Shown: one piece after another, positions 48,357-64,000 of the stretch | Numbering within the stretch: position 1 is the stretch's first letter | Layout of the letters: every line of letters starts with the position of its first letter | DNA from: a virus | Virus record (IMG/VR): IMGVR_UViG_3300023110_001943 | Location: 77,497 to 141,496 of that record | DNA: 64,000 nucleotides | Strand: one strand, 5' to 3' | Translations under genes and position numbers: made by a program | The notes under the pieces: generated by a model | What the model was told of the DNA's origin: nothing | The model's database searches: none | The model's input: only the letters and a program-made list of their open reading frames with translations

Positions 48357-48366
48357 ATATTTATAT
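48357..48366 (+). promoter_or_regulatory. ATATTTATAT putative late promoter
   Basis: Intergenic, 14-20 nt before the start of the 1754-aa gene. Confidence 0.6.
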
Positions 48367-48380
48367 ACTGATAAGGTATA

Positions 48381-51300
48381 TTGAATATGAATGAACTTTC
48401 ACAATATCTCGTAGAGCAAATGCTCTTAGAGGATGAAAATCCTATTAAAAAGGTCGTAGTAATTTATGGTGGTAGATTTCAACCATTCCATAAAGGACAC
48501 TATGGCACATACCAACACCTTGTCAAAAAATTCGGTAAGAATAATGTTTTTATCAGTACTTCCAACAAAGTAGAAAAACCCAAATCACCTTTTAACTTCA
48601 AAGAGAAGGTGAAAATCATGACTACGATGTTCAATATACCTAAATCAAAAATAGTACAGGTAAGAAACAATTATGCACCGAAAGAAATCCTCGATAAATA
48701 CGATAAAGAAACAACTGCCTTCGTAACCGTTGTTGGTGAGAAAGATTCTGGTAGATTAGGTGGAAAGTATTTTAGACCATGGAAAGGAAAGGCCGAAATT
48801 GGTTATGAAGAGGGTGGATATGTTTATGCTTCACCATCACAAGGTAGGGGTATAAGTGGAACTGAAACTCGTAATGGGTTATCAGTTGGTTCGGATGAAC
48901 AAAAACAAAACTTCTTTAAGAATCGTGCATATGGAAAGTTCAATATGACGATTTTCAAAATGATTACTGATAAACTTAATGAAGGAATTGAGATTCCTAA
49001 AGAAGTAATTGAAGAATGGCTCATCAATGAGAGTTCTAACTTAGGTGGGAACGCTGGAAGTGATGTTGATGATGGGCCAAGCTTCTTTTTTCCAAATTAC
49101 GATGTGTTTTCAAAGGTAAATATAGATAGAGCTAAGAAAATAGGTTGGGAAGTTCTTAATATGATTACCACACAAGAAATCGAAGATTATTATGACCACC
49201 CAAACTATCCAAATGGACCTGTTAAGGCAACTTCATTCTTTCCAGCAGGTATTATTGGTAATATGACTCCCAACAACCAGATAGATATTTACTCAAGTGG
49301 TGCATACTCACAATGGTTTAAACATGCAACCCGTAAGGCAACTTTAGCTGGATATGAATTAGTAAAATCAATTTCTGCAAAAGCTGATATTTCTCAAGAT
49401 AAAAATCAATCTGGTAATTTAGCAAAAGGTGATAAAGAATTGAAAGATGAATTTGAAAATTCTTTAAACGAAAATATTGTATTACCTGTTAAGGTTGGTG
49501 ATACTATCCTAACGGGTAGATTTAAAAATAAAAAAGTAACTGTAAAAACAATTGGTAAAGATGAACATGGAATGCCAACTATCAATGGTAAAAAGGTAGT
49601 AACCTTTAGATTGATGAAAGAAGGTTTCCAAGCAATATTTGAAGATGAAAAAGAAGATGAGAAATATACCCATGTAGGTAATGGTAACTATAAACTAAAA
49701 GGTAAAGAAGGTGAAGATGACCCAACTTTCAAAAAAGATGATAGTGGAAAATATATTGAGTTAGATAAAGATGGTAAAACTAAACCACAGCCAAAACAAG
49801 GTACATCTTTAAAACAAGGTGGGTATGACAATAAAGTAAAAAAAGAAAAAGAGATTCAAAAAAAGATTAGTGGAGATACTTCAAATGAAAAACCACAACC
49901 CAAAGAAGAACCAAAATCAAAAGTAACAACTTTACAAGGAAAAAAGTCTGGTAAAGAAATTCAAAATCTTGGTTTAGATGGTGGTGGTAAAGTATATGGA
50001 ACGGAGCACGGAGAAACCGCAATGGTTGATGATATCCTTGATGATGTTAAAAAGAACATACCAAAAGAAAGATGGAAAGATATTGTATTCGTAGGTGAAG
50101 GTGGTGCAACTGGAGATAATGGTGAATTAGAATTCAATGATGAAATGGATTATGCTGTTCCTAAATTCAAAGAATTGGGTGCAGGTATTGATACATGGGA
50201 TGGTGATGAAATGGATGTTCATAATGACCAATCCAAATTGTATAAAAGACAAATGGAAAAAACTGGTCTTAATCAATCACAAGTTAATGCAGGTAATTGG
50301 GCAAGTATGATTGGACAGGGTGAAGGAACTGATACCATGAGTCCTGATGATTTTTTAGATGATGAAGGAAAAGAATACATACAATCTGCAGCAAAAGAGG
50401 CAGGATTTCCTCCAATAGAAAATTGGGAGAATCCAACAGGTGAAACCCCAAGTGATGAAAATGATTGGAAAGGAAGTGGCGATAAAGGAACATTATATCG
50501 TTTAGCATTTCCAGAAGATAACAAAGATAAACAAACAAAGATAGGTGATATTCAAGATGCATTTAATGAAACAAGAGATGAACACCTTATTAAAAAAAGT
50601 AAAGAATTATCTTCTCAAGGAAAAATACCAATTGTCATAGCAGGTGAATCTCATGTAGGGTTGGTTGATAAAATGATGAAGAATGAATCTATTGGTTTAA
50701 GAGAATCTATTGCTGGAACAGAAGTTAAGTGTGAGAAATGTAATCACTCTTGGGAAATAGAATCAGAAGATACTGAAAAATACTTATGTCATTCTTGTGG
50801 TTGGGATTCACAAAAACAAGAATATGATTTTGATGCATTTGATTCTTGGCAAGAAAAAATGGGATTATCTGAAGATGTAGATATAGATGAAAGAAGTAAA
50901 GGAAAGTTAAGACCAGCAGATTTACTAAGAAGAAAGGCTAAAATGGCTGGTAAACGAGCACAGATTCAACGAAGAAGAGCTCGTACCATGAAAAGAAGAA
51001 AATCTATTGATAAACTTAAAAAGATTGCATACAAAAAAGCATACTTAGAAGTTTACAAAGAATTTATGGAAGATTTGTTTCCTGGTAAAACAAAAGCAGA
51101 ATTAACTATTCAACAGGCAAAGGTAGTTCATAAAAATGTACTTAGAAAAAAGAAAAGAGTTTTAAAAAGAGCAAGATTTAAGTTCTTACCTAAACTTAGA
51201 GATGCAGAAGTAGATAAATTTGATAACAAATCAAACATTTCATTTAATAAACCAAAAGAAACAAATGAAATGTCTAAATCTACTCTTAATAAGATTGAAA

Positions 51301-53645
51301 AATATGCTGAGAAACAATTATCACCAGAAGATATTGAGTTCACAAAACATTTTTTCGATAGATTGAACGACCCTCGTAATGGAAAAGAAATTTCTGATGC
51401 AGAATTGACGGGATTTTTTAAAAGATTATCAAAGTATAAAAAGAAATTTAAAGAATTCTTAGAAAAATATCAACAAATCGTTGTAAAAGATAAAAGACAT
51501 GATATCAATATTCCATTTGTTAAACAAGCAAATCAGATTATTGCAAAAACAGTAATGAGAAAGGATGATTTTAAAACATCTAACCCTGTTCTTGCATTTG
51601 AACAACTTGCAAAAGGTATGAGTTTAAGAGATATTGCAGAAAAACACGAAGTTTCTTTCGAAGAATTAAAGAAAGAAGCAGGAAAAGGTGTTAAAGTTGA
51701 AATGGAACACACTTCAGATGTAAAAGTTGCATACGATATCGCTAAAGACCACTTATTCGAGGACCCAAAATACTACACAAAACTTGCAACCATAGAGGAA
51801 GTAGGAGTTGGTACTGGTCAAAGTGGTATTCGTATGGGATATCCATCTAAAGATGATTTAAAACGAATCGAAAAAAGAGTTAAGAAACAAAGAAATAATA
51901 CTGATTCAAATCAAGAGTATCAATATGAACCAATTAGAGAAGGTAAAGAACTTAAAAAATTAGGAATCACCGATTTCAAATCACTCTTTAAGAAAATGCC
52001 ATCTGATTTACAAAAGAGAGTGTATAACTTAAAGAACTTTGGACAGAGAATTGATAAACACCCTGAAGGGAATGTACTTAAACATACAATCACAGTTGTA
52101 AATCGTTCAATCAAAGAAGATGATATCGATATTGCAATCGCAGCAATGTTCCACGATATAGGAAAAGATGAAACTGCGGGAATTCATCCAAAGAAAGGAC
52201 ATATCACACACTTTGGACATGAGAAAGTATCTGCTAATTTAGTAAATAAGTACAAAAAATGGATTGAATCAGTTGGTGGTAATGTAGATACGGTTCACTA
52301 TATAGTAAAAAATCATATGAGATACAAACAACTATCTGATATGAGACCTAAGAAACAATCTGATTTAAAATCTCATCCAAATTTTGATAAATTAAGTAAG
52401 TTTTCTAAACATGATAGAGGTGGATTAGGAGAAGGTATCATTACAGAAGGTGGTGCGTATGGACATATGTCTCACCCATTCGATACTGATATCAATTTAA
52501 CCTTTGGACAATTAAAAGATATCGTAAATCGTGCACTCGAAGGTACACTTGAGTTTACAAGAGAGAAAACTGATGGTCAAGCTCTTGCAATTTCATGGAG
52601 AGATGGAAGATTAGTAGCAGCTAGGAACAAAGGACACCTTAAAAACAAAGGTGAGAACGCATTAGATATCAAAGGTGTATCAGATAAGTTCCAAGGTAGA
52701 GGTGGATTATCAGATGCTTACAACTATGCAATGAAAGACCTTTCAAATGCTATATCTTCTCTTAACGATAAACAAAGAGATAAGATTTTTAAACAAGGTG
52801 CGTGTTTTATGAACCTTGAAGTGATATATCCAACATCAGTTAATGTAATTCCTTACGGTCAAGCGTTACTTGTATTCCATGGAACGATGGAATATAACGA
52901 TGAGGGTGTTGCAATTGGTGAAAATGGTGAGGCTGCAAGAATCTTGGCAGGTATGATTAAACAAGTTAACAAAGATGTACAAGATAATTATACGATTCAA
53001 GGCCCACCTGTTGTAAAACTACCTAAATCTACCGATTTATCAAAGAAAAGAAGTAAATATTCATCTCAAATCTCTAAATTACAAAAAGAATTCGGATTAA
53101 AGGATACGGATGGTGTTGCAAACTACCATCAAGCATGGTGGGAACAATGGGTTGATAAAAATTCACCATCAACACTTGATAACAAAACTAAAATGGGGTT
53201 AGTTAAGAGATGGGCATTCATGGATAAGAAGTTTAGATTAGATAATAAGAATATTACTGATTCTAAAACACTTGAATGGGCTAAAAAGATAGATAAAGAG
53301 GACCAAAAGAAGATTTCTAAACAGAATTTAATGAAGTTTGAACAGATTTTCTTAGGATTAGGAGCAGAAGTGTTAGAATTTACTTCATCTGCTCTAACTG
53401 TAAACCCTGATGCAGCAGTTCGTGATATGAAAAAGAGAATTGATAAAACAATCAAGGATGTTAAGAAATCAGGAGACCCAAAAAAGATAGAAAAACTTAA
53501 ATTAGAACTCCAAAGATTAAATTCTATTGGAGGTTCTAAAAAAATAGTACCGAATGAAGGTATAGTTTTCTTATATAATGGAAATACCTTCAAACTTACA
53601 GGTACATTTGCATCAGTAAACCAAATACTTGGTATTTTCTTCTAA
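48381..53645 (+). CDS. Multidomain (polyvalent) protein: HxGH nucleotidyltransferase, TraB/ChaN-like, Zn ribbon, DUF5661-like, HD domain, RNA-ligase-like
   Basis: 'GRFQPFHKGH'; 'GTEHG..VGEG..RD..AGESH'; 'CEKC..CHSC'; 'KVEMEHT..IAKDHL.E.PKYY.KL'; 'HPEG.V..HT..FHDIGK..GHE..SA..HM'; 'EKTDG..NLE..EGIVF..FKL'. Start may be ATG 48387. Confidence 0.75.
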   Translation: MNMNELSQYLVEQMLLEDENPIKKVVVIYGGRFQPFHKGHYGTYQHLVKKFGKNNVFISTSNKVEKPKSPFNFKEKVKIMTTMFNIPKSKIVQVRNNYAPKEILDKYDKETTAFVTVVGEKDSGRLGGKYFRPWKGKAEIGYEEGGYVYASPSQGRGISGTETRNGLSVGSDEQKQNFFKNRAYGKFNMTIFKMITDKLNEGIEIPKEVIEEWLINESSNLGGNAGSDVDDGPSFFFPNYDVFSKVNIDRAKKIGWEVLNMITTQEIEDYYDHPNYPNGPVKATSFFPAGIIGNMTPNNQIDIYSSGAYSQWFKHATRKATLAGYELVKSISAKADISQDKNQSGNLAKGDKELKDEFENSLNENIVLPVKVGDTILTGRFKNKKVTVKTIGKDEHGMPTINGKKVVTFRLMKEGFQAIFEDEKEDEKYTHVGNGNYKLKGKEGEDDPTFKKDDSGKYIELDKDGKTKPQPKQGTSLKQGGYDNKVKKEKEIQKKISGDTSNEKPQPKEEPKSKVTTLQGKKSGKEIQNLGLDGGGKVYGTEHGETAMVDDILDDVKKNIPKERWKDIVFVGEGGATGDNGELEFNDEMDYAVPKFKELGAGIDTWDGDEMDVHNDQSKLYKRQMEKTGLNQSQVNAGNWASMIGQGEGTDTMSPDDFLDDEGKEYIQSAAKEAGFPPIENWENPTGETPSDENDWKGSGDKGTLYRLAFPEDNKDKQTKIGDIQDAFNETRDEHLIKKSKELSSQGKIPIVIAGESHVGLVDKMMKNESIGLRESIAGTEVKCEKCNHSWEIESEDTEKYLCHSCGWDSQKQEYDFDAFDSWQEKMGLSEDVDIDERSKGKLRPADLLRRKAKMAGKRAQIQRRRARTMKRRKSIDKLKKIAYKKAYLEVYKEFMEDLFPGKTKAELTIQQAKVVHKNVLRKKKRVLKRARFKFLPKLRDAEVDKFDNKSNISFNKPKETNEMSKSTLNKIEKYAEKQLSPEDIEFTKHFFDRLNDPRNGKEISDAELTGFFKRLSKYKKKFKEFLEKYQQIVVKDKRHDINIPFVKQANQIIAKTVMRKDDFKTSNPVLAFEQLAKGMSLRDIAEKHEVSFEELKKEAGKGVKVEMEHTSDVKVAYDIAKDHLFEDPKYYTKLATIEEVGVGTGQSGIRMGYPSKDDLKRIEKRVKKQRNNTDSNQEYQYEPIREGKELKKLGITDFKSLFKKMPSDLQKRVYNLKNFGQRIDKHPEGNVLKHTITVVNRSIKEDDIDIAIAAMFHDIGKDETAGIHPKKGHITHFGHEKVSANLVNKYKKWIESVGGNVDTVHYIVKNHMRYKQLSDMRPKKQSDLKSHPNFDKLSKFSKHDRGGLGEGIITEGGAYGHMSHPFDTDINLTFGQLKDIVNRALEGTLEFTREKTDGQALAISWRDGRLVAARNKGHLKNKGENALDIKGVSDKFQGRGGLSDAYNYAMKDLSNAISSLNDKQRDKIFKQGACFMNLEVIYPTSVNVIPYGQALLVFHGTMEYNDEGVAIGENGEAARILAGMIKQVNKDVQDNYTIQGPPVVKLPKSTDLSKKRSKYSSQISKLQKEFGLKDTDGVANYHQAWWEQWVDKNSPSTLDNKTKMGLVKRWAFMDKKFRLDNKNITDSKTLEWAKKIDKEDQKKISKQNLMKFEQIFLGLGAEVLEFTSSALTVNPDAAVRDMKKRIDKTIKDVKKSGDPKKIEKLKLELQRLNSIGGSKKIVPNEGIVFLYNGNTFKLTGTFASVNQILGIFF

Positions 53646-56664: not shown

Positions 56665-57045
56665 ATGATTTCAATGAAAAACTTACTTAATGAAAACGAA
56701 TCATATTGCAATGAATATTTCGTAGAAAACTATCACGATATCAAAGAGTTTAAAGAATTCATGGAATCGTATAAACCAGATATTAACGAAGCGGAATATC
56801 AAGGTAGAACAGTAAAACTTGGTAAACCAATGCAAGGTGATGTTAAAAAGTTCAAAGTATATGTTAAAAATCCCCAAGGTAATGTAGTAAAAGTAAACTT
56901 TGGTCATAAAGGAAAAGGTGGAGAGAAAACGATGTCAATCAAAAAGAATAATCCTGAAAGGAGAAAATCTTTTAGAGCAAGACATAATTGTGATAATCCA
57001 GGCCCAAGACACAAAGCTAGATACTGGTCATGTAGAGCATGGTAA
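56665..57045 (+). CDS. Small basic phage protein with acidic leader, probable head cargo
   Basis: Leader 'MISMKNLLNE..INE'; then 'VNFG..RRKSFRARHNC..ARYWSCRAW'. Confidence 0.65.
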   Translation: MISMKNLLNENESYCNEYFVENYHDIKEFKEFMESYKPDINEAEYQGRTVKLGKPMQGDVKKFKVYVKNPQGNVVKVNFGHKGKGGEKTMSIKKNNPERRKSFRARHNCDNPGPRHKARYWSCRAW

Positions 57046-58884: not shown

Positions 58885-59757
58885 ATGAGAAAAATAAAGC
58901 ATTCAAAATTTAAAAACACAGGATTTCTTTTCGAGCTATTAACTCGACAAGTTACCCTTGAAATTATCAATGGTAATGAGGAAAGGGCCAAAGGAATTAT
59001 CAGAGAATTCTATGGTAAAGGTACTGAATTATCTAAAGAACTTAGATTATTTAACCTTTTAATAAACGAAAAATATAATACAGATTCAAAGGCTGAAAAG
59101 TTTATTGATGTTGTATTGGAGGCACATACTAAATTAGATTATAAAAAACTTCAACGAGAAAAGTATAATCTTGTAAAAGCTATCAAGGAAAACTTTGAAA
59201 TTAATAATTTCTTATCTTCCCCGGTAACAAACTATAAAATTTTAGCTTCAATTCACAAACTATTTGAAGGTAAAAAGAATGATATCCTTGATATTAAAGA
59301 TGTATTCGATTCAAAACTTACTCTTGTAGAACATATCTCATCTAATTCCCCAGCTACATTAAAAGAAAAAGAAGATAAGTTAGTAGAAGAATACAGAAAA
59401 CAAGAAAAAGATTTAAGATTATTGACGTACAAGATTCTTGTTGAAACATTTAACAAAAAATATACAAACTTAAATGAATCTCAAAAAGGTTTATTGAGAG
59501 AGTATATTAATAATGTTAATAACACTTCAAAGTTCAACGAGTATTTTGAAAAAGAATTAATCAAAACTATCACTTCTTTACACGAAATGTATAAAGGAAT
59601 GAAAGATAAGATTACAAAAATCAAGTTGAGAGAAACAATTAATGTTTTGAAAAAACAAAAAATTGGTAAAAAGATTACCGATGAGCAAGTTTCAGCTTTG
59701 ATGATGTCTTATGAATTGATTAAGGAGATAAAAAATGTCAATGGAAAAAACTCTTAA
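58885..59757 (+). CDS. Helical head-morphogenesis-region protein
   Basis: 290 aa, 'KHSKFKNTGFLFELL'; directly after the portal. Confidence 0.6.
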   Translation: MRKIKHSKFKNTGFLFELLTRQVTLEIINGNEERAKGIIREFYGKGTELSKELRLFNLLINEKYNTDSKAEKFIDVVLEAHTKLDYKKLQREKYNLVKAIKENFEINNFLSSPVTNYKILASIHKLFEGKKNDILDIKDVFDSKLTLVEHISSNSPATLKEKEDKLVEEYRKQEKDLRLLTYKILVETFNKKYTNLNESQKGLLREYINNVNNTSKFNEYFEKELIKTITSLHEMYKGMKDKITKIKLRETINVLKKQKIGKKITDEQVSALMMSYELIKEIKNVNGKNS

Positions 59758-60523
59758 AGAAATCTTAGATGAAATTCTTGATGAAGTAGAACAAGAATTA
59801 GAAGAGGCTACCACAACAGGTAATGTTGCTGGGTATAATACTCCTTTTGCTTTTGGTAATAATCGTAAAAAAGATAAGAAGAAAGAAAAAGAAACTGCTA
59901 CTCAAGCAGGATATACTCTTGCAGAAGGATTGATATCTCCAAAATCAGGACATAAATACTTTCAACTTACTAAAGATGCACCTGTACAATATATTGCAGG
60001 ACATTCTGGTTTAGGACTTACAACTCCTGGAGTTTTATTGAAAAACATACCTGGATTTATTGATGGTAAAAAGGGTGCGTATTTAATTGATTATCATGGA
60101 GCACTTTTTTATGTAGATTTAAAAAAGAAAGTTGCTGTTCGATTAGGATATGATTTAAGTAAACAACCTAAGTTAAGGTATAAAACTAATTTTATAGAAG
60201 TTCCTCAGGCACCAGAATTTTCAGATTGGAAAAAATATTTAAAAGAATCAGTAAACGAAGCTAAAATAAAAAGACCAGTAAATCGTTGGTTAGAATTAAA
60301 AAACGATGAAACCATGCATCCTCATAAGAAGATGGCAATGGGTTTAAAAGAATTAAAGTATCAATTAAAAGAAGTAGAAAAGTTTTTCAATTGGTATAAT
60401 AAAATTAAAACGATGAACGAGTTAGATTCTCAGAACTATTGGAAAAGAACAAATAATCATATTTATACTATAAAAGAGAAACTAATCAAAATCGCTAAAA
60501 CGATACAGGAGATTGAGAAATGA
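59735..60523 (+). CDS. Probable internal head protein with xxE-delimited modules
   Basis: 'LKEILDE..LEE|ATTTGNVAGYNTPFAF', 'LAE|', 'ESVNE|'; TAAGGAG RBS. Confidence 0.6.
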   Translation: MSMEKTLKEILDEILDEVEQELEEATTTGNVAGYNTPFAFGNNRKKDKKKEKETATQAGYTLAEGLISPKSGHKYFQLTKDAPVQYIAGHSGLGLTTPGVLLKNIPGFIDGKKGAYLIDYHGALFYVDLKKKVAVRLGYDLSKQPKLRYKTNFIEVPQAPEFSDWKKYLKESVNEAKIKRPVNRWLELKNDETMHPHKKMAMGLKELKYQLKEVEKFFNWYNKIKTMNELDSQNYWKRTNNHIYTIKEKLIKIAKTIQEIEK

Positions 60524-61255: not shown

Positions 61256-61432
61256 ATGACTAAGAAAGAGTTGTATGATATTATCAATGAGGAAATCGTT
61301 AATTTTAAAAAAGGAACAATCAACGAAGAACTCAATGAATCTGATAAGGATTTAATCCGAAAAATTATCAGACAAGAGGTATCAGCAATCTTTTTTGATT
61401 TGTTTAAGAAAAGAAAAACTTGGGGAGCGTAA
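61256..61432 (+). CDS. Small head-region protein (58 aa, not in ORF track)
   Basis: MTKKELYDIINEEIVNFKKGTINEELNESDKDLIRKIIRQEVSAIFFDLFKKRKTWGA; TAATG overlap with the protease start. Confidence 0.7.
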   Translation: MTKKELYDIINEEIVNFKKGTINEELNESDKDLIRKIIRQEVSAIFFDLFKKRKTWGA

Positions 61433-62025
61433 TGAGTAAACTATTAATAGAAACCAGATTATTCGAAGGTAGAGTAAACGAAGATGATAGTGGAAGAACT
61501 ATCGTTAAGGGTATTTTACAAAGAGCTGGTGCGGAAAATCAAAACGGAAGAATCTACCCAAAAGAGATTCTGATGAGAGAAGCAAAAAAATACGAAACAC
61601 TTATTAAAGAAAGAAGAGCATTGGGTGAATTAGACCATCCTGATTCTTCTGTAATCAACCTAAAGAATGTATCTCACAATGTAAGAGAGATTCATTGGGA
61701 TGGTGAAGATTTAGTTGGTACAGTAGAGATATTACCTACACCAAGTGGAAACATCTTAAAAGAATTATTAAAAGCAGGAATCCTTCTTGGTATATCATCT
61801 CGTGGTATGGGTTCGGTAGAACCTTTATCGGGTGGTAAAGTACAAGTAGGAGAAGATTTTGAATTGATTGGTTGGGATTTTGTATCCAATCCATCTACAC
61901 ATGGTGCATTTATGGTGCCAATGAATGAATCTGTGAATAAACAACTTCAAAAACAAACAGTAGTTTGTAACGAATGGTGTAAGGCACAAGATATGATGAG
62001 AGAAATTATAACAGAATTAAGTTAA
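61432..62025 (+). CDS. Prohead core protease (T4 gp21-like)
   Basis: 'NQNGRIYP', 'ALGELDHP', 'GISSRGMGS', 'WDFVSNPSTHGA'. Start moved to ATG 61432. Confidence 0.93.
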   Translation: MSKLLIETRLFEGRVNEDDSGRTIVKGILQRAGAENQNGRIYPKEILMREAKKYETLIKERRALGELDHPDSSVINLKNVSHNVREIHWDGEDLVGTVEILPTPSGNILKELLKAGILLGISSRGMGSVEPLSGGKVQVGEDFELIGWDFVSNPSTHGAFMVPMNESVNKQLQKQTVVCNEWCKAQDMMREIITELS

Positions 62026-62213: not shown

Positions 62214-63641
62214 ATGATTAAATTAGGTGGTCTTGTTGATTTAAAACCGATTACTGAAGCAGATGTATTCACTGCTACAAGTAAAGAAACTGGTACAACT
62301 TCTGTATTCAAATCTAAAGCTGCGAGAGATGCTGCAATAAAAGCAGGAACTCATGAAAAAAGAAAAGATGATAAAGATGGTGGAGTCAAAGACCCATCTA
62401 AAAAAGATACACCTAAAGTAAACATCTTCAACAAAGATAAAGAAGAACCTAAATCTGAACCAAATTCAGAACCTTCTAAATCATATCTACCATACTCTGA
62501 TGATGCATACAATGAGATAGAAGAAATAAGTTCAGCTGATGCACTATTAGATTATGCAGAATCAAAAGAAGGTTTATCGGATGAACAAAGAAAAAAATTA
62601 AAAGATTTAGCCGCAGATTGGGAAGATGCAGAAGGTGAAATGATGATGGGTGGAGATGATGATGAATATGAAGAAGCAACATCAGAAATTACAGCTAAAG
62701 CTATGGAAGTAGTACTTGGTCCGTATGATACTTGGCCAGAACCAAAACAAGATGAACCAAAATCAGAACCATCTCAACCAAAATTAGAATCAGACCCTCA
62801 AGCTGAAAAAGTTGCTGATAAGATTTCCAAAAAATATGGCATCACTCCTCAAAAAATGGGTGAAGAAGATTATAAGGTTGCAATGGGTAGAGCTGTTTAT
62901 TCGGCATTAACTAATTCTAACTTCCATACTGAAGCAAGAGAGTTAATTGCAGTTTTAGAAGATAAACCAGAACTTGCAAAAAGACCAGAGTATCCTTCAA
63001 TATCAGACCCAGATTTCGACAAGAAAATGGGTGATATTAGAAAAAAATATGCTTCTACATATAGTGAAAGAGATGATTATTCATCGGCATTGGGTAGAGA
63101 AACTTCAGATGCAGCTGAATGGGATGGAGTTAAATCAGTAGGAACTCTAACTAAACAACTACGAGATAATGGTATGAGTGATTTTGCTGATAAAATCGAA
63201 TCTATCTTTGATAAGAAAGAATATATGAAGAAAGAAGGTAGAATTAGTATTTCAAATCTTGTTAAAGAAAATATAATCAACGAAGGAACTCGTTCACAAG
63301 TTGGTATCATTGATAGAAGTGGTAAGATTGCATCAGCATATGTTCACTACGATGGTTATCCATCAAATATGAAACCAGGCCTTAAAAAACACATGAAGAA
63401 TGAAAAAGATGTTCTTAAGTTAATTAAGAGTGGTGGTGCAAGAGGAATCTATAATGATAAAGATATTGAATATTACAAAAGTGGAAAACCAACTAAAGGT
63501 AATCTAAAAGATTTTGGTAAATATGTAGATGCTGCTGATAGAAACGGTATGGCAGAATATGTATATTTATACAATATGAAAGATAAGAAGTGGTACTTCG
63601 CTGATGTTTATGGTGATAAAAAATTAAAAAAATTATTTTAA
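62214..63641 (+). CDS. Probable head-cargo polyprotein with C-terminal 'TRS..YxHxDGYP' domain
   Basis: Leader 'MIKLGGLVDLKPITE'; acidic/Pro linkers; 'IINE|GTRSQVGI..YVHYDGYP..EYVYLY'. Start set at ATG 62214 after GGAG. Confidence 0.65.
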   Translation: MIKLGGLVDLKPITEADVFTATSKETGTTSVFKSKAARDAAIKAGTHEKRKDDKDGGVKDPSKKDTPKVNIFNKDKEEPKSEPNSEPSKSYLPYSDDAYNEIEEISSADALLDYAESKEGLSDEQRKKLKDLAADWEDAEGEMMMGGDDDEYEEATSEITAKAMEVVLGPYDTWPEPKQDEPKSEPSQPKLESDPQAEKVADKISKKYGITPQKMGEEDYKVAMGRAVYSALTNSNFHTEARELIAVLEDKPELAKRPEYPSISDPDFDKKMGDIRKKYASTYSERDDYSSALGRETSDAAEWDGVKSVGTLTKQLRDNGMSDFADKIESIFDKKEYMKKEGRISISNLVKENIINEGTRSQVGIIDRSGKIASAYVHYDGYPSNMKPGLKKHMKNEKDVLKLIKSGGARGIYNDKDIEYYKSGKPTKGNLKDFGKYVDAADRNGMAEYVYLYNMKDKKWYFADVYGDKKLKKLF

Positions 63642-63651
63642 GGAGAGAACA

Positions 63652-64000
63652 ATGAAACTAACCCAACTAATGAAAGAAAATGAAGAAAGACCTCTATCAA
63701 CAGAGGTTAAAAAACATTTTCTTGAAATTGTTTCTACTTACAACAAGTATCAAGAATCAATGGATAGGAAATCAGATATTACTCAAGTAGCAGAAACACT
63801 TGGTGGAATTACTGAGGCTGCTAGAACACTTGCTATTAGAGAAGCAGGAGATTGGTTCGATAAACATACTGTTAAGAGAAACATGAGTGAATTGGATAAG
63901 TTGGGTAAACAATTCGATAAAGTTGCTCTTGAAGCTCGTGCACTTGACCAAAGAATGGCAGGATTATACGAAGATATGGGACACATCCTTTCAAGATACT
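63652..64000 (+). CDS. Head-region helical protein, 3'-truncated (not in ORF track)
   Basis: TAAGGAG RBS; MKLTQLMKENEERPLS... stays open to the window end. Confidence 0.7.
   Translation, partial: MKLTQLMKENEERPLSTEVKKHFLEIVSTYNKYQESMDRKSDITQVAETLGGITEAARTLAIREAGDWFDKHTVKRNMSELDKLGKQFDKVALEARALDQRMAGLYEDMGHILSRY

What the first reader, a model, noticed from the sequence alone, without database searches (positions are those of the whole stretch)
48381..53645. 1754-aa polyprotein whose enzyme domains are joined by prohead-protease-type (L/I)xE linkers
Seen: the protein is a string of unrelated modules and nearly every boundary carries a short Glu-ending linker: LLE (leader), KLNE 48981, LINE 49029, SLNE 49470, LMKE 49620, GLRE 50703, DIDE 50889, ETNE 51267, LAFE 51600, TIEE 51798, PIRE 51939, LGE/IITE 52431-52448. 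The gene has the late motif and sits 8 kb from a gp21-like protease. Known: T4 gp21 cleaves head proteins after Glu in L/I-x-E, and T4 internal proteins are packaged, processed and injected. Inference: one gene is packaged into the prohead, cut into roughly ten independent proteins, and co-injected as an effector kit.
Basis: partly seen in the sequence, partly recalled or inferred. Interest (0 to 1): 0.88.

Follow-up and report, generated by a model that had tools for sequence, protein, structure and literature searches.

The report
Phage enzyme polyprotein with head-protease linkers
A distant T4-like phage strings about ten unrelated modules (an NMNAT-like enzyme, an HD phosphohydrolase, a new kind of RNA ligase and others) into one late protein whose joints carry the Leu/Ile-x-Glu site cut by the T4-type head protease, so it is probably loaded into the capsid, cut apart and injected, though no experiment shows this.

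Summary
The ORF is real (likely ATG 48387, 1752 aa), and all twelve quoted Glu-ending linkers are at the stated coordinates.

[LI]xE is not enriched in the protein overall (18 seen, 17 expected). Its placement is very non-random: 11 of 18 sites lie within 5 residues of homology breakpoints that cover 13.5% of the protein (p = 3.5e-6).

Across 270 family members, LxE and IxE are the two most enriched of all 400 BxZ tripeptide classes at 886 non-redundant module junctions. A permutation test gives z = 19, and the controls [LI]xD, [LI]xK and [LI]xQ are flat. Junction sites are 92-99% conserved; three clearly internal ones 22-58%.

The universal C-terminal module is an unmodelled RNA ligase. In 245 members it is preceded by L/I (98%), any residue, then E (88%), in a segment AlphaFold leaves disordered.

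In relatives where the gene is split, the pieces either begin exactly at the junction or carry a 10-15-residue leader. That leader is also found on scaffold-like head genes of the same phage and follows the rules of the T4 capsid-targeting sequence.

An S77 protease with gp21's catalytic His and Ser lies 7.8 kb downstream. Packaging, cleavage and injection remain inferred.

This scan has noted similar polyproteins in at least 17 other genomes.

The parts
48357..48366 (+). Promoter-like motif ATATTTATAT, about 20 nt upstream of the start codon
   Evidence: 10 exact copies in the window, all on the + strand, against 1.47 expected. Other copies precede 53706, 56665, 58885 and tail-region genes.
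48387..53645 (+). Polyprotein gene (1752 aa from the ATG; the P0001 numbering used in this report starts 2 residues earlier, at TTG 48381)
48387..48431 (+). Leader MNELSQYLVE|QMLLE| with two [LI]xE sites (E10 and E15 counted from the Met)
   Evidence: Conserved as MNELSKFLVE|SILLE| across the family, and position 10 is the most common first site. It matches the pattern of the T4 IPII/IPIII capsid-targeting sequence MKTYQEFIAE: hydrophobic at 4 and 7, L/I at 8, E at 10 (PMC9026906).
48432..48983 (+). Module 1: HxGH nucleotidyltransferase (NMNAT-like), ending KLNE
   Evidence: Pfam CTP_transf_like 33.5 bits against a cut-off of 21. Weak PDB sequence hits to archaeal NMNAT. The FHKGH and ISGTETR motifs are present in the sequence. 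The 201 site is 99% conserved.
49032..49472 (+). Module 2: unknown, 147 aa, ending SLNE
   Evidence: Bounded by breakpoints at 212-217 and 357-364. No Pfam match. Low pLDDT.
49473..49622 (+). Module 3: small beta module (about 50 aa), ending LMKE
   Evidence: Breakpoints at 410-418. Beta strands in the model. The family has M/V/I-K-E at this position.
49623..50705 (+). Module 4: about 360 aa of unknown function, partly low-complexity, ending GLRE
   Evidence: Absent from most relatives, which join 416/418 directly to 772. The nearest ESM Atlas clusters are stand-alone viral hypothetical proteins.
50706..50891 (+). Module 5: CxxC...CxxC zinc ribbon, ending GLSE/DIDE
   Evidence: Sub-threshold Zn-ribbon and HypA matches. 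The 831 site is 94% conserved.
50892..51269 (+). Module 6: highly basic helical module
   Evidence: pLDDT 85-95, helical. Breakpoints at 950-966.
51270..51602 (+). Module 7: phrog_23027 C-terminal domain, ending LAFE
   Evidence: phrog_23027 E = 1.8e-11. Found in Melnitz, phiM12 and immuto phages. Weak RegB-like Pfam hit, E = 0.026.
51603..51800 (+). Module 8: DUF5661, ending TIEE
   Evidence: Pfam 42.6-47.9 bits against a cut-off of 27. The 1140 site is 93% conserved.
51801..51941 (+). Module 9: 47-aa spacer, ending PIRE
   Evidence: Breakpoints at 1139-1152 and 1182-1187. Disordered in the model.
51942..52433 (+). Module 10: HD phosphohydrolase, ending KHDRGGLGE
   Evidence: Pfam HD 29-34 bits against a cut-off of 22. 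KHDRGGLxE is followed by at least 7 different modules in relatives.
52434..52448 (+). Linker GIITE immediately before the ligase
   Evidence: In 245 family members, position -3 is L/I in 239, position -2 is variable, and position -1 is E in 215. pLDDT about 34.
52449..53642 (+). Module 11: RNA-ligase-like nucleotidyltransferase with no Pfam model, beginning GGAYGHMSHPFD
   Evidence: AF2 pLDDT 90.8. The top structural matches are all RNA ligases (VIA Z 8.9-7.1; Foldseek). K of EKTDGQ, E151, E397-G398 and K409 are invariant or nearly so. 1763 clusters at 50% identity, with the domain almost always C-terminal.
56665..57045 (+). Small protein between TerL and portal with the 10-aa leader MISMKNLLNE|
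   Evidence: Its homologues in relatives carry MI[SK]L..LL.E.
58885..60523 (+). Two [LI]xE-rich putative prohead-core proteins (14 and 10 sites)
   Evidence: z = 3.1 and 3.3, the highest in the genome.
61432..62025 (+). Prohead protease (Peptidase_S77, gp21-like)
   Evidence: Pfam 93.2 bits. 28% identical to T4 gp21, E = 1e-22, with GELDHP and GISSRG aligned to the His and Ser segments of gp21. N-terminal LLIE|T as in gp21.
62214..63641 (+). Scaffold-position protein with leader MIKLGGLVDLKPITE|
   Evidence: Homologues in relatives start MIKL..LL.E|E.FTAT.
63652..63999 (+). N-terminus of the major capsid protein (cut off by the contig end), with GGITE|AARTLAIRE|A at residues 55 and 64
   Evidence: T4 gp23 has FLTE|AEIGG at the equivalent place.

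Best explanation
The gene encodes capsid cargo made as a polyprotein.

Proposed mechanism:
- It is transcribed with the head genes.
- Its N-terminal ~10-15-residue leader (M-x-x-hydrophobic-x-x-aromatic/hydrophobic-L-x-E) targets it to the prohead core, as the T4 capsid-targeting sequence does.
- The gp21-type S77 protease then cuts after Glu in the exposed (L/I)-x-E joints. This removes the leader and frees 8-10 pieces.
- The folded pieces stay in the head and enter the host with the DNA.

The pieces include an NMNAT-like HxGH nucleotidyltransferase, an HD phosphohydrolase and an ATP-dependent RNA ligase. Relatives also carry CCA-adding/poly(A)-polymerase, 2H phosphoesterase and GNAT modules. 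The most likely job is immediate RNA (tRNA) heal-and-seal and nucleotide-based counter-defence.

The cleavage-site joints also act as in-frame boundaries at which modules are gained, lost and swapped between closely related phages.

Shown: the modular anatomy, the motif specificity, its conservation, the fission and fusion at the joints, the shared leaders, the protease, the synteny and the ligase fold.

Inferred: packaging, cleavage, injection and the biological target.
For: (1) Motif specificity. Among 886 non-redundant junction contexts from an all-against-all comparison of 270 family proteins, LxE (160 seen, 34 expected) and IxE (128 seen, 29 expected) rank first and second of 400 tripeptide classes. 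With the ligase junction excluded, 232 of 815 contexts have [LI]xE within +/-5 aa, against 74.9 +/- 8.2 in permutations (z = 19). [LI]xD, [LI]xK, [LI]xQ and [FYW]xE are not enriched. L/I-x-E is the published gp21 site (PMC9026906).

(2) Selection. Junction sites 201, 217, 364, 831, 1140, 1351 and 1356 are 92-99% conserved as [LI]xE. Three clearly internal sites (1087, 1127, 1246) are 22-58% conserved.

(3) The ligase start. Positions -3/-2/-1 before GGAxGHM are L/I (239 of 245), variable, and E (215 of 245), yet this segment is disordered in a pLDDT-90.8 model. Stand-alone ligases either start M-GGAYGH or carry 7-29-aa leaders ending in [LI]xE.

(4) Fission. In L006 the same pathway is three genes (NTase+cupin; PolyA_pol+2H; ligase starting M-GGAYGH), followed by TerL, portal and S77.

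(5) Portable leader. Split-off ligase genes begin MIRLHKILNE|VLLKE|GG. The same MI[KSR]L..LL.E leader heads scaffold-position and small head genes, and other cargo, in the same loci. In L005 the separate NTase (MIQIGPYIITE|) and ligase (MRNIGPYLIE|) share a leader. The pattern fits T4 MKTYQEFIAE|, where residues 4 and 7 target and residues 8 and 10 direct processing (PMC9026906).

(6) Protease. S77 with the catalytic His and Ser segments and the N-terminal LLIE|T of gp21. Its neighbours are [LI]xE-rich core proteins, and the capsid protein has sites at residues 55 and 64.

(7) Context. The order ligase, TerL, portal, S77 holds in all 80 related IMG/VR loci with enough flank. A promoter-like motif is shared with the structural genes.

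(8) Arms-race pattern. Relatives with a 95%-identical ligase and a ~90%-identical TerL have cassettes of 650-1450 aa with different modules.
Against: There are no proteomic, biochemical or structural data for this phage or any relative. Literature searches found none.

[LI]xE is not enriched over the whole protein.

Two stand-alone ligases start directly at M-GGAYGH with no leader, so in those phages the enzyme probably works unpackaged.

In L005 the leader-bearing genes lie among DNA-metabolism genes, not head genes.

27 of 245 members have Cys or Met instead of Glu at P1.

T4 gp21 can act on cytoplasmic proteins (PMC12991175), so cleavage need not imply packaging.

The low pLDDT of many linkers may partly reflect shallow alignments.

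No 5'-kinase module was identified, so a complete heal-and-seal pathway is not demonstrated.
Confidence: 0.58

Rival explanations
1. The polyprotein is cut by the prohead protease at the same joints, but in the cytoplasm late in infection (or in proheads without later delivery). Cleavage would simply release or regulate enzymes that act in the producing cell, not an injected kit.
For: T4 gp21 cuts exposed I/LxE loops of a cytoplasmic host CD-NTase in vivo (PMC12991175). Some relatives encode the ligase with no leader at all. L005 cargo-like genes lie among DNA-metabolism genes.
Against: It does not explain why split-off modules acquire the same 10-15-aa leader as scaffold-position head genes, nor the T4-CTS-like pattern of the leader. 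Late release of RNA-repair enzymes in a cell about to lyse has little obvious value. The gene's fixed position directly upstream of TerL, portal and protease fits head cargo.
Confidence: 0.2
2. The protein works intact as a multi-enzyme RNA-repair or nucleotide-metabolism machine (a Rosetta-stone fusion). The Glu-ending linkers are just flexible acidic joints.
For: The modules are functionally related: NTase, HD and RNA ligase, with CCA-adding and 2H modules in relatives. Fusion and fission of pathway enzymes is common. E is generally enriched 1.7-fold at the junctions.
Against: The enrichment is specific to L/I at P3 and E at P1 (z = 19), with [LI]xD, [LI]xK, [LI]xQ and [FYW]xE flat. Junction sites are far better conserved than internal ones. 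The motif persists in the short leaders of stand-alone enzymes, where no linker is needed.
Confidence: 0.12
3. The conserved joints exist mainly as DNA-level microhomology that promotes in-frame module shuffling, not as protein signals.
For: Modules are exchanged exactly at the joints. Recurrent linker peptides such as ENINESKLLxE follow different upstream modules.
Against: No significant direct DNA repeats join the linkers within the gene; only 14-15-nt chance-level matches were found. The same linker peptide is encoded with different synonymous codons. The P2 residue and the L/I codons vary while the amino-acid pattern is kept. This mechanism could coexist with cleavage rather than replace it.
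Confidence: 0.05

Closest known systems
Phage T4 internal proteins IPI, IPII, IPIII and Alt (capsid-targeting sequence, gp21 processing, injection)
   Same: N-terminal ~10-aa leader with hydrophobic residues at 4 and 7, L/I at 8 and E at 10. An L/I-x-E site. A gp21-family S77 protease in the genome. Unrelated cargo proteins share one leader. The cargo is hypervariable and looks like counter-defence.
   Different: T4 cargo proteins are single proteins trimmed at one or both ends. Here one 200-kDa precursor would be cut at 8-11 internal joints into independent enzymes. The cargo is RNA-repair and nucleotide enzymes, not an ADP-ribosyltransferase or a restriction inhibitor. Nothing has been shown experimentally.
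Polyvalent proteins of phages and conjugative elements (Iyer, Burroughs, Anand, de Souza, Aravind 2017, PMC5512222)
   Same: Many unrelated catalytic domains in one polypeptide. Encoded next to the portal and terminase virion genes. Extensive mosaicism. Predicted delivery with the DNA.
   Different: None of the hallmark domains (MuF, ART, MPTase/Zn-peptidase, DdrB-ParB, PBECR) was detected by Pfam. That paper reports that the 2H-domain versions found in polyvalent proteins never associate with RNA ligases. Processing there is ascribed to embedded peptidases, not to prohead-protease sites placed at every joint.
T4 Pnkp + RNA ligase 1 tRNA repair (counter to the PrrC anticodon nuclease)
   Same: A phage RNA ligase of the covalent nucleotidyltransferase superfamily combined with end-healing phosphoesterases and, in relatives, CCA-adding enzymes.
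   Different: The T4 enzymes are separate early cytoplasmic proteins. The ligase here is a distinct, unmodelled family with a large helical insert between motifs IIIa and IV. No kinase module was found.
Multiply cleaved head and ejection proteins of phiKZ-like and SPN3US-like jumbo phages
   Same: A gp21-related prohead protease cuts many head-internal proteins after Glu at a 3-residue motif, sometimes at several sites (PMC9026906).
   Different: The motif there is S/A/G-x-E. The substrates are structural or inner-body proteins, not a chain of swappable enzymes.

Membership tests
T4-type capsid-targeted, gp21-processed head cargo | N-terminal 10-19-aa propeptide with targeting residues at 4 and 7 and processing residues L/I at 8 and E at 10 | tested here: met
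   MNELSQYLVE: L4, Y7, L8, E10. Family consensus MNELSKFLVE. T4 MKTYQEFIAE read from NC_000866. Rules taken from PMC9026906.
T4-type capsid-targeted, gp21-processed head cargo | A gp21-family (Peptidase_S77) prohead protease in the same genome | tested here: met
   61432-62025: 93.2 bits against a cut-off of 27. 28% identical to gp21, with the His and Ser segments aligned. S77 is also present in Mel-JY01, LR756508 and immuto.
T4-type capsid-targeted, gp21-processed head cargo | L/I-x-E sites in exposed positions at the points of processing | tested here: met
   z = 19 enrichment at the junctions. 11-13 of 15 sites lie in low-pLDDT segments. Junction sites are 92-99% conserved.
T4-type capsid-targeted, gp21-processed head cargo | Physical presence in virions, cleavage by the protease, and ejection into the host | not testable with these tools
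   No proteomic or biochemical data were found.
Polyvalent proteins (Iyer et al. 2017) | 2-15 unrelated domains in one polypeptide, encoded by a phage with a portal-terminase system next to virion genes | tested here: met
   About 11 modules. TerL lies 1.4 kb downstream, followed by portal and protease.
Polyvalent proteins (Iyer et al. 2017) | Presence of the hallmark domains of the class (MuF, ART, MPTase, DdrB-ParB, PBECR and others) | tested here: inconclusive
   None passed Pfam thresholds. There is only a weak RegB/BECR-like hit for module 7 (E = 0.026).
ATP-dependent RNA ligases (covalent nucleotidyltransferase superfamily) | Motif I KxDG lysine plus motifs III, IV (EG) and V (K) | tested here: met
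   In the 44-sequence alignment, K67, D69, G70, E151, E397 and G398 are invariant and K409 is conserved in at least 90%.
ATP-dependent RNA ligases (covalent nucleotidyltransferase superfamily) | Adenylyltransferase fold | tested here: met
   The nine best of 48,161 chains are all RNA ligases: NgrRnl Z 8.9 (189 aa, 4.2 A), REL1 8.5, Trl1 8.1, T4 Rnl2 8.0, T4 Rnl1 8.0. The Foldseek top hits are Trl1, Rnl3 and Rnl1, but with weak E-values of 6e-3 and above. Z values around 8 are moderate, and the tool's own note warns that Z near 8 is typical background.
ATP-dependent RNA ligases (covalent nucleotidyltransferase superfamily) | Ligase activity on RNA ends | not testable with these tools
   Needs an enzyme assay.
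HxGH nucleotidyltransferases (NMNAT/PPAT-like, Pfam CTP_transf_like) | Profile match plus the HxGH and ISxTxxR motifs | tested here: met
   33.5 bits against a cut-off of 21. FHKGH and ISGTETR are in the sequence. The nearest solved relatives are archaeal NMNATs, at a weak E = 1.4e-3. The substrate is unknown.
HD phosphohydrolases | Profile match with the H...HD metal-binding motif | tested here: met
   29.3-34 bits against a cut-off of 22. AAMFHDIGKDE is in the sequence.

The most novel reading that the evidence does not exclude
An abundant clade of aquatic T4-related phages uses a polyprotein strategy otherwise typical of RNA viruses. One late gene carries a capsid-targeting leader and a variable string of enzyme cassettes separated by prohead-protease sites. 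The head protease doubles as a cargo-release enzyme, and ready-made RNA-repair and nucleotide enzymes, including a new RNA-ligase family, are injected with the DNA. The protease-site joints serve as standard connectors that let phages swap counter-defence modules in frame.
Probability: 0.5. Interest if true: 0.85.

Novelty: new variant of a known kind. Interest (0 to 1): 0.78.

Why it matters
If true, three things follow.
- The T4 capsid-targeting and gp21 paradigm would extend from single trimmed proteins to a modular, protease-released enzyme kit.
- It would be the first case of an RNA ligase and RNA-end-healing enzymes delivered pre-made by a virion.
- It would explain how closely related phages reshuffle counter-defence modules so quickly.

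It also defines a large RNA-ligase family with no existing model (about 1760 clusters at 50% identity). The leader-plus-(L/I)xE grammar could be used to predict capsid cargo in uncultured T4-like phages, and to load foreign proteins into phage heads. The hypothesis can be tested directly on cultured relatives.

Tried and rejected
- Whole-protein enrichment of [LI]xE: absent (18 seen, 17 expected). The claim only holds positionally.
- DNA-repeat joints inside the gene: only chance-level 14-15-nt matches. Linker DNA is not more conserved than the adjacent ligase DNA, and the same linker peptide is written with different synonymous codons.
- Sequence searches of the ligase profile and of modules 4 and 7 against PDB: nothing meaningful. 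The ligase profile gave only low-complexity hits to ribosomal protein eS6; modules 7 and 4 each gave a single chance-level hit.
- Pfam on the isolated unknown modules 2, 3, 4 and 6: nothing above threshold.
- ESM Atlas on module 4: only unnamed viral clusters.
- Testing whether members with Cys or Met at P1 come from phages without S77: the contigs were too short, 2-4 kb.
- Within-locus versus between-locus rate of shared leaders: uninformative, because the loci are related phages that share the same leader. Only the individual examples are used.
- A Nampt partner for the NMNAT-like module: not found in this 76%-complete record.
- N-terminal [LI]xE within residues 7-20 as a genome-wide cargo predictor: too common by chance, about 25% of ORFs.
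- Literature searches for virion proteomics of relatives, or for a described prohead-protease polyprotein: none found.
- Complex prediction was not used. A protease-substrate pair is a poor case for it.
Full report
**The object**

The window is the last 64 kb of a 141,496-bp IMG/VR virus record, linear and estimated 76% complete. Its terminase is 55% identical to those of Flavobacterium phage immuto and Microcystis phage Mel-JY01, and about 32% identical to those of cyanomyophages. It is therefore a distant T4-like phage.

ORF 48381-53645 is the only long frame there. Homologues start MNELS/MNKLS, so the real start is ATG 48387 and the protein has 1752 aa. Residue numbers below follow P0001, which starts at TTG 48381, two residues earlier.

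Nucleotide-sugar genes lie upstream. Downstream lie two small genes, TerL (55040), a 126-aa gene, portal (57086), three unknown genes, a Peptidase_S77 protease (61432-62025), a scaffold-position gene, and the start of the capsid gene at the contig end.

**Check of the observation**

The overall number of [LI]xE motifs is ordinary: 18 against 17.0 +/- 3.8 in shuffles. What is not ordinary is where they are.

Close relatives have a C-terminal domain ~95% identical but total lengths of 1033-1853 aa. They align to the query in blocks whose ends recur at 199-217, 357-364, 410-418, 763-777, 831, 950-966, 1074-1077, 1126, 1139-1152, 1182-1194 and 1349-1354.

- 11 of the 18 [LI]xE sites lie within 5 residues of such breakpoints, which cover 13.5% of the protein (p = 3.5e-6).
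- In an AlphaFold model of residues 190-1370 (mean pLDDT 58), 11 of 15 sites fall in segments under pLDDT 50, which make up 47% of the model. With two borderline sites the count is 13 of 15.
- Only sites 1087 (inside DUF5661) and 1246 (inside HD) are clearly in folded parts.

**Family-wide test**

I compared 270 family proteins all against all and took internal ends of alignments as junctions. That gave 886 non-redundant contexts.

- Of the 400 possible B-x-Z classes, LxE (160 seen, 34 expected) and IxE (128 seen, 29 expected) rank first and second. MxE is enriched 2.6-fold, VxE 1.9-fold and E alone 1.7-fold.
- With the ligase junction excluded, 232 of 815 contexts have [LI]xE within 5 residues, against 74.9 +/- 8.2 for random positions in the same proteins (z = 19).
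- [LI]xD, [LI]xK, [LI]xQ and [FYW]xE are not enriched. [VA]xE and [KR]xE are only slightly enriched, z = 2.4 and 2.9.
- Typical joints are KHDRGGLxE followed by at least seven different modules, EYQYEPIxE followed by three, and WQEKMGLxE followed by four.
- In the alignment of relatives, junction sites 201, 217, 364, 831, 1140, 1351 and 1356 keep [LI]xE in 92-99% of sequences. Internal sites 1087, 1127 and 1246 keep it in 22-58%. Sites 212 and 1187, which lie near breakpoints, keep it in 63%.

The data-driven motif is exactly the published specificity of T4 gp21, L/I-x-E with cleavage after Glu (PMC9026906).

**The core of the family**

Mel-JY01 has a 639-aa protein in which residues 23-210 of the query (the HxGH nucleotidyltransferase) are joined directly to residues 1348-1753. 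The window protein is therefore a two-domain core with about 1140 aa of cassettes inserted at the joint.

The C-terminal domain has no Pfam model. It occurs in 1763 clusters at 50% identity, almost always at the C-terminus of proteins of 390-1930 aa.

It folds confidently (pLDDT 90.8). Its best structural matches are all RNA ligases: NgrRnl Z 8.9, REL1 8.5, Trl1 8.1, T4 Rnl2 and Rnl1 8.0. Foldseek agrees, but weakly. The KxDG lysine and motifs III, IV and V are invariant or nearly so. I read it as a new family of ATP-dependent RNA ligase.

The other recognisable modules are:
- an NMNAT-like HxGH transferase;
- a zinc ribbon;
- a basic helical module;
- a phrog_23027 domain;
- DUF5661;
- an HD phosphohydrolase.

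Relatives add PolyA_pol/CCA-type, 2H phosphoesterase, GNAT and cupin modules. The set looks like RNA-end repair plus nucleotide chemistry, but no kinase was found.

**The site before the ligase**

In 245 members, the three residues before GGAxGHM are L or I (239), anything, and E (215; Cys 15, Met 12).

The model leaves this segment disordered (first 30 residues, pLDDT about 34). The conservation is therefore not explained by the fold.

Stand-alone ligases either start M-GGAYGH or have leaders of 7-29 residues ending in [LI]xE. Examples are MRNIGPYLIE|GG and MITFRQYISE|GG, exactly ten residues long.

**Fission, fusion and portable leaders**

- In L006 the pathway is three genes (NTase+cupin, PolyA_pol+2H, and a ligase starting M-GGAYGH), followed by TerL, portal and S77.
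- In L030, L034 and L047 the ligase is a separate gene starting MIRLHKILNE|VLLKE|GG.
- The same MI[KSR]L..LL.E leader heads the small gene after TerL, the scaffold-position gene after the protease, and other cargo in the same loci.
- In L005 the separate NTase and ligase share the leader M.xIGPY[IL]IxE.
- In the window, 56665 starts MISMKNLLNE| and the polyprotein starts MNELSQYLVE|QMLLE|.

T4 IPII and IPIII both start MKTYQEFIAE|. In T4, residues 4 and 7 target the protein to the core, and residues 8 and 10 direct processing (PMC9026906). The leaders here have hydrophobic residues at 4 and 7, L/I at 8 and E at 10.

Unrelated proteins sharing one short leader with head-core proteins is the signature of a targeting peptide.

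**Protease and head genes**

The S77 protein is 28% identical to gp21 (E = 1e-22). GELDHP and GISSRG align to gp21's catalytic His and Ser segments, and it shares gp21's N-terminal LLIE|T.

The genes at 58885 and 59735 have 14 and 10 [LI]xE sites, the highest excess in the genome (z about 3.2), as expected for core proteins that are degraded. The capsid protein has sites at residues 55 and 64, where T4 gp23 has its propeptide site.

The gene carries ATATTTATAT 20 nt upstream of its start. This motif has 10 copies in the window, all on the + strand, against 1.5 expected, and it also precedes head and tail genes.

In all 80 related IMG/VR loci with enough flank, the order ligase, TerL, portal, protease is kept. 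The cassette between the NTase and the ligase varies from about 0.4 to 3.7 kb.

**Interpretation**

I put this at about 0.58.

What is shown is anatomy, motif specificity, selection, fission at the joints, shared leaders, protease, synteny and fold. What is inferred is packaging, cleavage, injection and the target.

Main reservations:
- There are no experimental data.
- A few leaderless stand-alone ligases exist.
- 27 of 245 members have Cys or Met at P1.
- gp21 can cut cytoplasmic proteins at exposed I/LxE loops (PMC12991175), so processing without delivery is a live rival (about 0.2).
- An uncleaved multi-enzyme (0.12) does not explain the motif specificity.
- DNA microhomology joints (0.05) are not supported by repeats or by codon conservation.

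**Relation to what is known**

It works like T4 IP and Alt cargo, but as a multi-cut polyprotein. It has the architecture and context of polyvalent proteins (PMC5512222) but none of their hallmark domains. That paper reports no association of RNA ligases with the 2H-domain versions found in polyvalent proteins, and it invokes embedded peptidases for processing.

Jumbo-phage head proteins are cut at S/A/G-x-E by gp21 relatives, but they are not chains of swappable enzymes.

I class this as a new variant of a known kind.

Earlier notes of this scan describe similar polyproteins in at least 17 other genomes. They are AI notes, not independent evidence.

Noticed in passing
window 11323, 13295, 14461, 20758, 29245, 34142, 48357, 53670, 56637, 58836: ATATTTATAT occurs 10 times, always on the + strand, against 1.5 expected. 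Most copies lie 20-35 nt upstream of structural or late-looking genes. This is a candidate late promoter that differs from T4's TATAAATA.
   Followed up: partly
window 58885-59757 and 59735-60523: Two unknown proteins between portal and protease carry 14 and 10 [LI]xE sites (z about 3.2, the top values in the genome). They are probably prohead-core proteins degraded by the protease. Homologues are conserved in immuto (immuto_198) and in L006.
   Followed up: partly
L041, L047, L012, L018, L016, L082 (several genes each); window 56665 and 62214: A shared N-terminal leader, MI[KSR]L..LL.E, heads non-homologous genes of the head region in relatives: the small gene after TerL, the scaffold-position gene, the split-off ligase and unknown cargo. 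It is a candidate clade-specific capsid-targeting sequence.
   Followed up: partly
P0264 (1693 aa); P0251, P0254, P0270, P0236, P0128, P0214 (Cys at P1); P0177, P0182 (Met at P1): Exceptions in the ligase family. One protein has the ligase at its N-terminus, behind the leader MTELLTE. 27 of 245 members have LLxC or LLxM instead of LLxE before GGAxGHM. The contigs were too short to see which protease those phages have.
   Followed up: partly
genome G000 at 2606, 4057, 12179, 17431, 18993, 20862, 21577, 35973, 43393, 50935, 51555; window 15750 and 45168: A dozen or more paralogous genes start with a G(C/D)SFT.G-type motif (an SGNH/GDSL-hydrolase-like block I). They are scattered through the genome, some beside the nucleotide-sugar genes. 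This is an unusually large paralogue family for a phage.
   Followed up: no
L018 6342-11209 and L013 2-3758: In two close relatives the polyprotein reading frame is broken into 2-3 ORFs that do not start at junction motifs. The cause is either frameshifts or assembly errors, or decaying copies.
   Followed up: no
L003 (Flavobacterium phage immuto) 8189-8947: immuto_191 (252 aa) is a stand-alone protein made of DUF5661 followed by the phrog_23027 module, the reverse of the order in the window. It has the leader MKKSQLRQIIKE| and an IEE| joint, and lies 5 kb upstream of TerL. It is a cultured-phage test case.
   Followed up: partly
window 63652-63999: The contig ends inside the major capsid gene. 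The record is linear with no terminal overlap and is estimated 76% complete, so part of the head and tail module is missing.
   Followed up: yes
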